From the sequence record KP682380.1: a DNA stretch of 64,000 nt; one strand, written 5' to 3'. This document shows positions 42,001 to 45,000 of this stretch, one piece after another (position 1 is the first letter of the stretch; the number at the start of each line of letters is the position of its first letter). The position numbers are program-made. The DNA comes from Escherichia phage PA27.

Positions 42001-45000
42001 CATGAATATTTTGAGAAAGCTTATGCAGAGTCTGTGCGGTTGCGGAAAGCATGATGACTGTGAAAACGGGCAGTCGCTTACAGCACAACTGCGACTGGGA
42101 CCGGCAGACATTCTGGAGTCAGATGAGAATGGCATTATTCCGGAGCAGGACAGGGTAATCACACAGGTGGTGATACTGGATGCAGATAAAAAGCAGATAC
42201 AGTGTGTGGTAAGACCGCTGCAAATCCTGCGTGCTGACGGGACGTGGGAAAATATTGGCGGGATGAAATAGCCGACAGCTTCACAAAAACCGGAGCCCGG
42301 CTCCGGTTTTTGTTGTCATGTATAGGGGGGGGTTATTAGAGAGTGAAGTAATAAACATGTTAATACGATGGAGTGAAGGATGCCGTGTAATTCTGGTTCA
42401 AGAGTTTTTTATGCCGGAAAATCGCAGGATTATTCTGGATAGTAAAGAATCCTGGTTAATAATCTGTGATAGTCAGTTGGGCCATTTAATGCGCAGTATG
42501 TATCAGGGACGCCGTTTTATTCAGCTGAATCTGGAAAAATTGAAAGGGGTACATGATGTCGCCTTGCCAGTGAAATGGGAATTCACACGAAGACAGTGAA
42601 TAGCTTTCTGTATACGGGAATGGCGAAAAATGGACTGTATGGTGTGAGTGTGAAACATCTTGCGTGTGCGGAGTGATGCTTCTCGTTGCTACAGCGGCAA
42701 TGATAATGCAGTGAAAAAAGGGGAGCAATATGCTCCCCCAAACCGAAAGAAAATTGCAATAATCAATGAAGTTATTTAGTCATCATCAGAATGTCATGCA
42801 AGGCATTTTGTTTCAGTGATGCCGATCGCGATTTTAGCGAATTCCATCATAAATCCCCTGATTTTTAAGCCTGAAGCAGTCAAAGGAATTTCTATGCCCT
42901 ATATCGATATCACCACGATGCGTGGGATGATGCCGCGCGTTGTGACATCCATGCTGCCCGAGCATTCCGCTGTACTGGCGGAGGACTGCCATTTCCGGTT
43001 TGGTGTTATTACACCAGAACGTCAGATATCCGGGGTTGAGAAAACATTCACAATTAAGCCAAAAACAATTTTTCATTACCGTGACGATTTCTGGTTTGCA
43101 TGGCCGGATGTGGTGGATGTGATCCGCAGTCCGATCGCTCAGGACCCCCACGGGCGTATTTACTACACTGACGGGCGTTTTCCTAAAGTGACGGATGCGA
43201 CTATTGCCACAAAAGGGGACGGGAATCACCCGACATCATCGTATCGTCTGGGGATCCCCGCGCCGACGACAGCTCCTGTCTGTACTGTTCAGCAGGGCGG
43301 TGATGTTTCTGACGATAACCCGAATGATGATGAAACCCGGTTTTATACGGAAACCTTTGTCTCAGATTATGGTGAAGAAGGTCCGCCAGGTCCGGCGTCT
43401 CTGGAGGTAACACTCCGTACTCCGGGAACTGCGGTACAACTGACGCTGGCTCCGGTGCCATTGCAGAATGCCAGTATTAAACGTCGCCGGATTTATCGCT
43501 CTGCATCAGGTGGAGGGGAGGCGGATTTTTTACTTGTGGCTGAACTGGATGCATCCGTGCTCAGTTACACGGACAAAATACCGGCGAAAAACCTTGGGCC
43601 TTCCCTGGCGACATGGGATTACCTGCCGCCGCCAGAGAATATGACAGGCCTTTGCCTGATGGCTAACGGTATTGCCGCCGGGTTTGCCGGTAATGAAGTG
43701 ATGTTTTCGGAAGCGTATCTGCCGTATGCATGGCCGGAAGTGAATCGTCACACGACGGCAGAAGATATTGTAGCTATCTGTCCGCTGGGAACGTCACTGG
43801 TGGTGGCGACAAAGGGGGAGCCTTATTTGTTCAGTGGGGTATCACCGTCCACAATTTCTGGTTCCAAAATCCCTTCAATGCAGGCGTGTCTGAGCAGGCG
43901 GAGTATGGTTGCGATGGAGGGTTTTGTGCTGTATGCAGGAACAAATGGCCTGGTGTCTGTTGATGCAAACGGTAATGTCGCGCTGGCGACGGAACAGATT
44001 GTTTCACCGGAACAGTGGCAGAGTCAGTTTAATCCGGCCTCCATTGTGGCTTATCCCTGGCGTGGTGAATACATTGCCTGTTACACGAAACCGGATGGTA
44101 AGCAGGATGTGTTTGTATTCAGTCCGGTGAACATGGATATCCGTTATCTCAGTACACCGTTTGACTGCGCATGGGTTGATCTCGCGAAAGATATGATGCG
44201 CGTGGTGACAGGAGACAAAATGTCAGTGCTTGCCGGGGGGGCTCTGCCCTCCACGATAAGGTGGCATTCAAAAATTTTTTCATTACCTGAAAGAACCTCT
44301 TTTTCCTGTATCAGGGTGAAATCTCCGGCGCCTGAGCGGGTGGGGATCACCATTATGGCTGATGATGTTCCTGTGATTCATTTTGCGCCGGGTACGTTTA
44401 AGGGAAGTGTGGTGAGACTTCCGGCAGCAACCGGGCAAAACTGGCAGGTGATGGTATCCGGATTCGGGCAGGTGGAACGAATAACCCTGAGTACATCAAT
44501 GTCGGAGATGCCGGTATGACCAGAAAACCGTGGCGTGCGGGGAAGGATTTATCCACTGTTGTGGAGAATATGGAAATTGGCACCGGGCAGCGTGGTGACG
44601 GACGTCACGCATTTGTGACCCGTGAGGAACTGGTTGGTCTTAAACTCGCCCGGCGTCGAACATCGGGTGGTGCCTCATATGCACTGAATCCGGGTATTGA
44701 GATTGACAGTACTTTAATGACTGTTGATTTTCCCACAAAACCGCTGAATTTTAAGGCGACCGGTGGATTTGGCTCGGTTCTTCTTGAATGGGATATGCCT
44801 AATTATCGCGGACATTCACTGACTGAAATCTGGCGGGGTACGGAGGATGACCTTGCTGATGCAGTGCTGGTTGCCACGACGCCGGGGCAGGTTTACGGCG
44901 ATCCGGTTGACCCTGGCTGGTCGGGATTTTACTGGATACGTTTTGTTAACGCGGCAGGAGTGAAAGGTCCATGGAATGCTGAAAAAGGCACTCAGGCACA

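What the first reader, a model, noticed from the sequence alone, without database searches (positions are those of the whole stretch)
42272..42893. 620-bp gap within the tail gene block containing a possible moron ORF and a perfect 8-bp-stem palindrome
Between the post-fibre ORF and the next tail gene lies a weakly supported 80-93 aa ORF (42318/42357-42599) and a perfect hairpin GGGGAGCA-ATA-TGCTCCCC (about 42719-42737) flanked by A-runs, which reads as a terminator on the minus strand. An intergenic gap with its own terminator inside a structural operon is a typical moron signature.
Basis: seen in the sequence. Interest (0 to 1): 0.3.

Follow-up and report, generated by a model that had tools for sequence, protein, structure and literature searches.

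The report
Unnamed antisense small RNA in Stx2 phage
The gap between tail genes of this Shiga-toxin phage holds a broken leftover of an accessory gene and, on the opposite strand, the terminator of a small RNA that published data show bound to Hfq but nobody has named; this is a testable lead, not a new kind of system.

Summary
The window is Stx2 phage 933W / Sakai Sp5 (100% identity). The hairpin and the ORF are both real, but they are not one unit.

- **Terminators.** The hairpin (arms 42720-42727 / 42731-42738) is followed by six U only on the minus strand. It is one of about seven top-grade terminators in 64 kb, against 0.07 expected by chance.
- **Minus-strand RNA.** Tree 2014 Hfq-CRAC ranks this intergenic region 27th, with all reads on the minus strand. 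Waters 2017 RNase E-CLASH contains minus-strand fragments 42808-42774, one of them ligated to the sRNA MgrR. No name, Rfam family or annotation covers it.
- **The ORF.** L0123/ECs1230/ORF69 is a decayed copy of the 156-aa orf-156 gene of Eib prophages. Residues 21-77 are in frame, 78-119 are deleted and 120-156 are out of frame. A stub of orf-60 follows.
- **The site.** It is an accessory-gene slot: phage 86 carries cor there and P-EibD carries eibD. Both keep the hairpin unchanged.

Best reading: a convergent Hfq-bound small RNA, antisense to the leader of the essential gene ORF70, beside a dead accessory-gene cassette. It is a new member of a known kind.

The parts
42002..42271 (+). ORF68 / ECs_1229 (context): 89-aa tail-fibre C-terminus-like protein, the last gene of the fibre module
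   Evidence: RefSeq annotation. Pfam Phage_fiber_C 5e-36 and phrog_576. Reported as non-essential in Mondal 2016.
42283..42313 (.). T1: bidirectional intrinsic terminator. A 15-bp perfect inverted repeat whose G+C-rich core CCGGAGC/GCTCCGG is flanked by an A-run and a T-run.
   Evidence: -21.7 and -22.2 kcal/mol on the two strands, z -5.3 and -5.1; found on both strands.
42325..42332 (+). G8 homopolymer between ATG 42318 and ATG 42357. It is G7 in 4 of 16 related loci, so the 93-aa form of the ORF is not kept in frame.
42357..42599 (+). ORF69 / L0123 / ECs1230 (80 aa; RefSeq start 42411). A truncated N-terminal fragment of the orf-156 family: it is homologous to residues 21-77 of P-EibD ORF-156D and lacks that gene's own start and Shine-Dalgarno sequence.
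   Evidence: phrog_2014 3e-58; phrog_6585 (156-aa profile, positions 20-84) 2e-29. BLASTP 61% identity over 57 aa. Alignment A3. In-frame deletion 42366-42587 gave several-fold more plaques and lysogens.
42560..42676 (+). Out-of-frame remnant of the orf-156 C-terminus (residues 120-156, 86% identity). Residues 78-119 are deleted just upstream.
42677..42714 (+). 3' stub (about 12 codons plus the stop) of the small hydrophobic orf-60/orf24 gene, which is intact in P-EibD and phage 86.
   Evidence: Alignments A1 and A3 and the translation of orf-60D.
42714..42739 (-). T2: minus-strand intrinsic terminator, GGGGGAGCA-UAU-UGCUCCCC + U6. The stem is invariant between the two diverged sequence types; only one loop base differs.
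   Evidence: conservation.
42714..42808 (-). Minimal extent of the Hfq- and RNase E-associated small RNA, from the 5' ends of the CLASH fragments to the T2 U-tract (about 95 nt). The primary transcript may begin near 42839 (about 126 nt).
   Evidence: Tree 2014 Table S1B rank 27, minus-strand reads only. Waters 2017 chimeric reads mapped exactly to 42808-42774 and 42807-42784 on the minus strand. Folding.
42846..42875 (-). Best predicted promoter for that RNA: -35 TTCAGG (42875-42870), 18-nt spacer, -10 TATGAT (42851-42846), predicted start near 42839. Inferred, not shown.
   Evidence: PWM score in the top 0.02% of all window positions. It lies in the block that is 100% conserved in all variants.
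42883..42896 (+). Shine-Dalgarno AAGGA (42883-42887) and the true ATG (42894) of ORF70 / L0124 / ECs_1232, an essential virion gene.
   Evidence: RefSeq start. Citrobacter and Vibrionaceae (Vibrio, Photobacterium and related) homologues align from residue 1-4 and have no upstream extension. Essentiality from Mondal 2016.

Best explanation
The 620-bp gap is a junction between two late-gene modules of Stx2 phage 933W/Sp5. It contains three separate things.

1. **T1 (42283-42313)** is a strong bidirectional intrinsic terminator that closes the tail-fibre module.

2. **A dead accessory-gene cassette.** ORF69/L0123 is the N-terminal fragment of an orf-156-type gene. The C-terminal part of that gene survives out of frame, and only a 3' stub of the following orf-60 gene remains. 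In Eib prophages the same genes are intact and sit downstream of the immunoglobulin-binding gene eibD.

3. **A convergent minus-strand unit.** It produces a small RNA of about 95-126 nt that ends at the hairpin T2 (42739-42719 plus U6). This RNA is made in lysogens and is bound by Hfq and RNase E. It is antisense to the untranslated leader of the essential virion gene ORF70/L0124.

The shown steps are the terminators, the minus-strand RNA and its Hfq/RNase E association (from published data), the pseudogene status of the ORF, and the variability of the slot.

The inferred steps are as follows. The RNA has its own promoter (TTCAGG-18-TATGAT, start near 42839). It is trimmed to a 5' end near 42808. 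It acts by base pairing, either in trans (candidate partner MgrR, 12 bp, -15 kcal/mol, which would make it a sponge or anti-sRNA) or in cis on the late transcript upstream of ORF70. During lytic growth the Q-modified polymerase would read through T1, and T2 is not a terminator in that direction.
For: - **Identity of the window:** 100% identical to 933W, VT2-Sakai and many other Stx phages.
- **Terminators:** (9 hits in the window against 0.07 in shuffles).
- **Minus-strand RNA, Hfq:** in Tree 2014 Table S1B the intergenic region ECs1231...ECs1232 ranks 27th, with 81,206 / 6,030 / 70,478 / 146,246 / 3,140 reads, all in the 'sense' column. In that table 'sense' means the minus strand: sroC, ryhB, oxyS and AsxR fall in 'sense', while spf, ssrA, cyaR, chiX and micA fall in 'antisense'. 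The read counts are comparable to those of the CyaR and RyhB intergenic regions.
- **Minus-strand RNA, RNase E:** Waters 2017 lists two chimeric reads whose halves map to minus strand 42808-42774 and 42807-42784. The target is flagged as overlapping an Hfq site and as oligoadenylated.
- **Coordinates:** the offset to the old Sakai numbering was checked independently with AsxR.
- **Conservation:** the hairpin stem is invariant in a segment that is only about 60-70% identical between 933W-type and phage 86/P-Eib-type sequences.
- **Non-coding status:** the old minus-strand ORF ECs1231 has been dropped from RefSeq, and the minus-strand ORFs match no protein family.
- **ORF remnant:**. PGAP marks homologous pieces as pseudogenes in O55:H7.
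- **Variable slot:**
- **MgrR duplex:** -15.1 kcal/mol, reached by 0.2% of shuffles, at the same bases as the chimeric read.
- **Architecture:** Tree 2014 describes convergent sRNAs between accessory-gene cargo and a conserved phage ORF at the PR' site. The layout here is the same.
Against: - No transcription start is mapped. No sigma-70 promoter passes the simple consensus scan, and the PWM candidates are only moderate.
- I could not read the raw CRAC, dRNA-seq or Term-seq tracks, so the exact ends are inferred.
- The RNA was not listed among the 63 EcOnc sRNA candidates of Tree 2014. That list required at least 100 nt from a coding sequence or an antisense position, and this site did not qualify.
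- The MgrR link rests on a single chimeric read.
- There is no useful covariation outside the terminator: the covariation term was +0.28 with only two deep sequence types.
- The near-100% identity of 42810-42893 is part of a mosaic block running into ORF70, so it does not by itself show selection on a promoter.
- The one phenotype known in this gap (the ORF69 deletion, which gives more plaques and lysogens) maps to 42366-42587, outside the RNA.
Confidence: 0.65

Rival explanations
1. One reading: ORF69 is an accessory gene forming its own small transcription unit, and the hairpin is that unit's terminator.
For: The slot is variable among related phages and elsewhere carries genuine accessory genes such as eibD and cor. 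ORF69 belongs to a recognised small-ORF family, phrog_2014. Deleting it changes plaque and lysogen yield.
Against: The hairpin has a U-run only on the strand opposite to the ORF. ORF69 is a fragment of a 156-aa family with an internal deletion and a frame break, and it lacks that family's own start and Shine-Dalgarno sequence. No good promoter lies between T1 and the ORF; the best candidate is TTGTCA-18-TAGAGA, in the top 0.17%. The G7/G8 polymorphism breaks the longest form of the ORF.
Confidence: 0.05
2. T2, with T1 as a back-up, is only an insulator that stops stray antisense transcription coming out of the late genes. The Hfq-bound RNA is then a by-product, held by Hfq through its U-tail, with no regulatory role.
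For: No clear local promoter is present. The antisense transcript could start inside ORF70, where long minus-strand ORFs have been annotated by others. There is no covariation in the RNA body. The body differs about 35-40% between the two types, with no evidence of a conserved seed. Only one chimeric read links it to a partner.
Against: The read numbers in Hfq-CRAC match those of the CyaR and RyhB intergenic regions. Two independent fragments share a 5' end at 42808/42807. The 12-bp match to the unstructured region of MgrR lies exactly at the chimera. The same convergent-sRNA layout at the PR' site yields functional anti-sRNAs.
Confidence: 0.2
3. The hairpin works on the + strand, inside the late mRNA, as a processing site or as a 3' stabiliser for the upstream message or a 5' stabiliser for ORF70. 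It is conserved for that reason.
For: The stem is a perfect palindrome, so it also folds in the + strand RNA. It sits just after the stop codon of orf-60/orf24 in the phages that keep that gene. It is invariant between the two types.
Against: The run of 5-7 A before it (U on the minus strand) is kept in all ten variants, although two have it interrupted as TTTCTTT, and nothing U-rich follows on the + strand. The ninth pair is a G-U pair only on the minus strand. The published reads are from the minus strand.
Confidence: 0.07
4. The minus-strand transcript is the mRNA of a small protein, the former ECs1231 (58- or 80-aa TTG-start ORFs at 42583-42759 or 42486-42728).
For: It was once annotated as a gene, and Waters 2017 labelled the fragment 'ECs1231 5'UTR'.
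Against: The terminator lies inside those ORFs. They have TTG starts and match no family in PHROGs or Pfam. The gene has been removed from RefSeq. The region beyond T2 is a remnant of + strand genes.
Confidence: 0.03

Closest known systems
Prophage-encoded Hfq-binding sRNAs and anti-sRNAs of EHEC (AsxR, AgvB, EcOnc series; Tree et al. 2014, PMC4104026)
   Same: It is carried by the same Stx2 phage and transcribed against the late operon. It sits between accessory cargo and a conserved phage ORF, ends in an intrinsic terminator, and is recovered with Hfq. A core-genome sRNA (MgrR) is a candidate partner, as FnrS is for AsxR and GcvB for AgvB.
   Different: There is no sequence or structure similarity: Rfam AsxR hits only 23768-23820 and nothing in this gap. 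It is longer (about 95-126 nt against 51-60 nt). It lies in the tail region, not the PR' site. It has never been named, blotted or tested.
STnc6030 antisense RNA of Salmonella prophage BTP1 (Owen et al. 2020, PMC7067206)
   Same: It is a lysogen-expressed RNA antisense to the late structural genes of a short-tailed temperate phage, at the junction next to tail and injection genes. That RNA confers superinfection exclusion.
   Different: STnc6030 is 786 nt and overlaps coding sequence. The RNA here is short, overlaps only the untranslated leader of ORF70 as far as is known, and is Hfq-bound. No exclusion phenotype has been tested.
Morons, i.e. accessory transcription units inserted between phage structural genes (Juhala et al. 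2000, as cited in Tree 2014)
   Same: The slot shows presence/absence and content variation among close relatives, and elsewhere it carries lysogenic-conversion genes (eibD, cor).
   Different: In this phage the cargo is decayed and lacks a promoter-ORF-terminator unit on one strand.
Eib prophage cassette orf191(DUF4376)-eib-orf156-orf60 (P-EibD, AF151675)
   Same: ORF69 and the sequence after it are homologous to orf-156 and to the 3' end of orf-60. The hairpin and the L0124 homologue follow in the same order.
   Different: 933W lacks eib and orf191, has lost residues 78-119 of orf-156 and most of orf-60, and has a different (type A) RNA body.

Membership tests
Moron (autonomous accessory transcription unit in a structural operon) | Present, absent or replaced among closely related phages | tested here: met
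   Phage 86 has orf22-cor-orf24 here, P-EibD and strain KY203 have eib-orf156-orf60, and 933W has the ORF69 remnant. The identity profile is mosaic.
Moron (autonomous accessory transcription unit in a structural operon) | Intact ORF with its own translation signals | tested here: not met
   ORF69 covers only residues 21-77 of the 156-aa family. The rest is deleted or out of frame, and the native start and Shine-Dalgarno sequence are absent.
Moron (autonomous accessory transcription unit in a structural operon) | Terminator on the same strand just after the ORF | tested here: not met
   T2 has a U-run on the minus strand only. The + strand continues CAAACCGAAAG.
Moron (autonomous accessory transcription unit in a structural operon) | Own promoter upstream of the ORF | tested here: inconclusive
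   Only weak PWM candidates were found and none passed the consensus scan.
Hfq-dependent small regulatory RNA | Intrinsic terminator with a 3' U-tract, preceded by a U-rich stretch | tested here: met
   UUUUCUUUCGGUUU, then a 9-bp stem, then U6.
Hfq-dependent small regulatory RNA | Bound by Hfq in vivo | not testable with these tools
   Taken from the literature: Tree 2014 Table S1B rank 27, minus-strand reads in five samples, and the Hfq-overlap flag in Waters 2017. Stability in a strain lacking hfq is not reported.
Hfq-dependent small regulatory RNA | Defined primary start or processing site giving a discrete small transcript | tested here: inconclusive
   Promoter candidates come from a PWM only. 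Two CLASH fragments begin at 42808/42807. [quoted passage not shown]
Hfq-dependent small regulatory RNA | Base-pairing partner | tested here: inconclusive
   One chimeric read with MgrR. The predicted 12-bp duplex is -15.1 kcal/mol, reached by 0.2% of shuffles. No significant trans match was found within the phage.
AsxR / AgvB anti-sRNA families (Rfam RF02703, RF02702) | Match to the family covariance model | tested here: not met
   No hit in 41500-43500 even at E <= 1. The AsxR model hits only 23768-23820.
PasB (EPEC prophage sRNA embedded in structural genes) | Sequence identity with PasB of E2348/69 | tested here: not met
   By inspection, the PasB Northern probe AATCCCGCAGTGATCGCGGAGCT (NC_011601 1466343-1466261) has no counterpart in either RNA type. 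No formal search was run.

The most novel reading that the evidence does not exclude
The Stx2 phage carries a previously unnamed Hfq-dependent small RNA with two roles. In lysogens it would sponge the PhoPQ-controlled sRNA MgrR, linking the toxin phage to lipopolysaccharide modification. As an antisense RNA to the leader of the essential virion gene ORF70, it would also damp late-gene leakage or block superinfecting relatives, in the way STnc6030 does in BTP1. The second sequence type (phage 86 / Eib prophages) would carry a different seed aimed at another host RNA. That would make this a second 'variable seed, fixed terminator' sRNA slot in Stx phages.
Probability: 0.2. Interest if true: 0.6.

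Novelty: new member of a known kind. Interest (0 to 1): 0.4.

Why it matters
Stx2 phages drive the severity of EHEC disease, and several of their small RNAs (AsxR, StxS) already tie the prophage to host physiology. This locus adds a candidate that is as abundant on Hfq as the CyaR or RyhB regions, is present in about 270 of 5,426 complete E. coli genomes and about 154 deposited phage genomes, and has been overlooked because a spurious ORF annotation kept it out of the sRNA lists.

The analysis also corrects the reading of three annotated genes:
- L0123 is a pseudogene remnant.
- ECs1231 is not a gene.
- L0124 starts at ATG 42894.

It further shows that the fibre/L0124 junction is the slot where eib and cor are carried.

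Tried and rejected
- **Rfam.** The region searched at E <= 1 gave only sub-threshold chance hits (RsaOG, DapZ).
- **Named sRNAs considered and excluded.** AsxR lies 3' of stx2B. HnrS is on Sp9, Sp10 and Sp12. PasB has a different sequence and locus. All EcOnc coordinates in Sp5 fall outside the gap.
- **Covariation.** Ten variants fall into only two deep types, giving no usable signal.
- **Hairpin pattern scan of IMG/VR.** It found no third type. Most hits were unrelated terminators sharing the same stem.
- **Full-length duplex prediction with MgrR.** This was meaningless, so a local duplex was used instead.
- **Trans targets inside the phage.** Only chance-level 10-mers turned up.
- **Function of orf-156.** Pfam, NCBIfam and PDB sequence searches found nothing. 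Its LuxR-like helix-turn-helix look is my impression only.
- **Homologues of ORF69.** The search found five near-identical E. coli entries and nothing informative.
- **Literature.** A search by the 933W/EDL933 gene names was unproductive. The supplement of Sy 2020 with mapped starts is not held.
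Full report
**Identity and coordinates.** The window is a 933W-type Stx2 phage. Bases 41800-43400 are 100% identical to 933W, VT2-Sakai (Sp5), Min27 and dozens of other Stx phages.
- Window position x equals x + 1244861 in Sakai NC_002695.2.
- It equals x + 1244719 in the older NC_002695.1 numbering used by the Tree laboratory. I derived that offset from an exact read match and checked it with AsxR, which Rfam finds at 23768-23820 minus and Tree 2014 lists at 1268494-1268542.
- The gap lies between ORF68/ECs_1229 (ends 42271) and ORF70/L0124/ECs_1232.

**Checking the observation.**
- The ORF runs 42318-42599, with in-frame ATGs at 42357 and 42411.
- The palindrome has 8-bp arms at 42720-42727 and 42731-42738 and is preceded by six A. 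On the minus strand this is a textbook intrinsic terminator: a 9-pair stem, a 3-nt loop and U6.
- A strict scan finds 9 such hits, about 7 distinct sites, in the whole 64-kb window. Dinucleotide-preserving shuffles give 0.07.
- Two of those sites lie in this gap. It is terminator-like on both strands.

**The hairpin ends a minus-strand RNA that has already been seen.**
- In Tree et al. 2014 (PMC4104026), Table S1B ranks the intergenic region ECs1231...ECs1232 27th among Hfq-crosslinked intergenic regions. It has 81,206 / 6,030 / 70,478 / 146,246 / 3,140 reads in five samples, all in the column headed 'sense'.
- Known sRNAs in the same table fix what that column means. spf, ssrA, cyaR, chiX and micA (+ strand) are all 'antisense'. 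sroC, ryhB, oxyS and AsxR (- strand) are all 'sense'. 'Sense' therefore means the minus strand.
- In Waters et al. 2017 (PMC5286369), two RNase E-CLASH chimeric reads contain fragments labelled 'ECs1231 5'UTR'. Their sequences map exactly to minus strand 42808-42774 and 42807-42784.
- One of these fragments is ligated to the core sRNA MgrR. The table flags the target as overlapping an Hfq site and as oligoadenylated.
- ECs1231 was a minus-strand ORF that RefSeq has since removed. The candidate ORFs run through the terminator and match no protein family.
- The RNA has no EcOnc name. That list required a site at least 100 nt from a coding sequence, or antisense to one. The same group later noted that this filter had hidden StxS in Sp5.
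- It is not AsxR, HnrS or PasB, and no Rfam family matches it.

**Anatomy of the RNA.**
- The 3' end is fixed by T2, at about 42714-42716.
- Upstream of the stem lies a U-rich stretch, UUUUCUUUCGGUUU. From general knowledge, this is typical of Hfq-dependent sRNAs.
- Two independent CLASH fragments begin at 42808/42807, which may mark a processed 5' end.
- The best promoter candidate is -35 TTCAGG, 18 nt, -10 TATGAT (42875-42846). It scores in the top 0.02% of PWM scores in the window and predicts a start near 42839 and an RNA of about 126 nt.
- A second candidate, ATGACA-17-TAACTT, predicts a start near 42762. It exists only in the 933W type and cannot explain the reads upstream of it.
- The simple consensus scan finds no promoter, so the start remains inferred.

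**Comparison with relatives.** The block from the hairpin to the ORF70 start exists in two sequence types: type A (933W) and type B (phage 86, P-EibD and many E. coli prophages).
- From about 42810 rightward the two types are about 100% identical. That identity continues into ORF70, so it is a mosaic block and not evidence for a conserved promoter.
- The RNA body (42741-42808) is only about 60-70% identical and contains indels.
- Within that diverged body the hairpin stem is invariant; only one loop base differs. The U-tract is present in every variant at 5-7 positions, interrupted as TTTCTTT in two of the ten.
- Ten distinct variants gave no useful covariation outside the terminator.
- A pattern scan of IMG/VR found no third type.
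- Type A is present at 99% identity or more in about 270 E. coli genome records and about 154 phage records.

**The ORF is a remnant.**
- ORF69 matches phrog_2014 (an 80-aa family) and also positions 20-84 of phrog_6585, a 156-aa family.
- Alignment with P-EibD shows three states. Residues 21-77 of ORF-156D are kept in the ORF69 frame at 61% identity. Residues 78-119 are deleted. Residues 120-156 survive at 86% identity in another frame, at 42560-42676.
- Only the last dozen codons of the next gene, orf-60 (a small hydrophobic protein), remain, at 42677-42714.
- The native start and Shine-Dalgarno sequence of orf-156 are missing.
- The G8 run at 42325-42332 is G7 in a quarter of related loci, which breaks the 93-aa form.
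- PGAP annotates homologous fragments in O55:H7 as pseudogenes.
- Mondal et al. 2016 (PMC5155283) nevertheless report that an in-frame deletion of ORF69 (42366-42587) gives several-fold more plaques and lysogens. This is unexplained. The deletion does not touch the RNA.

**The slot.** Between the fibre gene and the L0124 homologue, related phages carry different cargo.
- Phage 86 and O111 prophages carry a Gp38-like adhesin, the exclusion lipoprotein Cor and orf24.
- P-EibD and other prophages carry a DUF4376 protein, the immunoglobulin-binding protein Eib, orf-156 and orf-60.
- Citrobacter prophages have yet other content, some of it on the minus strand, directly upstream of the homologue.
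- The layout, accessory cargo followed by a convergent sRNA and then a conserved phage ORF, is the one Tree 2014 described for the PR' site.

**Start of ORF70.** ATG 42894 has a good Shine-Dalgarno sequence (AAGGA, 6 nt upstream). Homologues in Citrobacter and Vibrionaceae (Vibrio, Photobacterium and related genera) align from residues 1-4 and have no upstream extension. RefSeq now uses this start. The stretch 42816-42893 is therefore leader, not coding sequence, and the RNA is antisense to that leader.

**How it most likely works.**
- Shown: the two terminators, the minus-strand Hfq- and RNase E-associated RNA in lysogens (from the literature), the pseudogene status of ORF69, and the cargo slot.
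- Inferred: an own promoter and processing at about 42808.
- Inferred: action by base pairing. The one experimental lead is MgrR. The predicted local duplex, AAUGC-C-UUGCAUG with CAUGCAAGCAUU, lies in the unstructured region just before the MgrR terminator. It has 12 pairs and -15.1 kcal/mol, a value reached by 0.2% of shuffles. That would make the RNA a sponge in the manner of AsxR and AgvB.
- A cis role on the late transcript upstream of ORF70 is equally open. Its model would be STnc6030 of BTP1, an antisense RNA next to the injection and tailspike genes that excludes superinfecting phage.
- The main rival is that the RNA is a by-product of an insulating terminator.

**Verdict.** This is an unnamed member of a known class (prophage Hfq-binding sRNAs) next to a dead accessory-gene cassette. 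Interest is moderate, and the decisive data already exist in public archives.

Noticed in passing
window 42325-42332: A G8 homopolymer just after terminator T1 is length-polymorphic: G8 in 12 and G7 in 4 related loci fetched from IMG/VR and GenBank. The change shifts the frame of the longest (93-aa) form of ORF69.
   Followed up: partly
window 42816-42893: The older GTG 42816 start of L0124/ECs1232 (567 aa) is very likely wrong. ATG 42894 has a Shine-Dalgarno sequence, and distant homologues start there. Several deposited phage records still carry the long form.
   Followed up: yes
window 42366-42587: Mondal 2016 report that deleting ORF69 gives several-fold more plaques and lysogens. Since ORF69 looks like a pseudogene fragment, the cause is unexplained. 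PWM promoter-like sites on the + strand lie inside the deleted segment, with -35 hexamers at 42408 and 42436.
   Followed up: partly
L004 2599-3069 (P-EibD orf-156D): The intact 156-aa protein ends in LASEMGIHTKTVNTFLYTGMAKNGL. By eye this resembles a LuxR/GerE-type helix-turn-helix after a receiver-like N-terminus. Pfam, NCBIfam and PDB sequence searches found nothing, so this is only a lead.
   Followed up: partly
window 19529-19645 and 26500-26616 (minus strand): Two identical ALIL pseudoknot hits, the frameshift element of IS3-family transposases. This implies two copies of the same insertion sequence bracketing about 7 kb that holds the three tRNA genes, STnc100 and AsxR.
   Followed up: no
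window 17144-17342, 7877-7935, 60708-60882, 63504-63592: Other Rfam hits at gathering threshold: isrK, C4 antisense RNA with its a1/b1 targets, the lambda cIII thermoregulator, sok antitoxin RNA, and sRNA-Xcc1.
   Followed up: no
L008 (NZ_JPLE01000225.1, Xanthomonas pisi DSM 18956, 961-bp contig): This contig encodes residues 259-541 of L0124 at 100% identity to the E. coli Stx phage. It is almost certainly contamination of that assembly.
   Followed up: no
L007 2800-3000 (Citrobacter braakii prophage): Directly upstream of the L0124 homologue there is a minus-strand terminator-like hairpin, GGGGCG-N8-CGCCCC followed by a T-run. A minus-strand small gene with a strong Shine-Dalgarno sequence follows it. 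The sequence is unrelated, but the convergent layout is similar.
   Followed up: no
L090 2230-3323 (E. coli O55:H7 DEC5D): The ORF68-T1-ORF69 left part also occurs at 93% identity in a long-tailed, lambda-like prophage next to its tail-fibre genes, annotated there as pseudogene fragments. This piece therefore travels with fibre C-terminal modules across phage types.
   Followed up: partly
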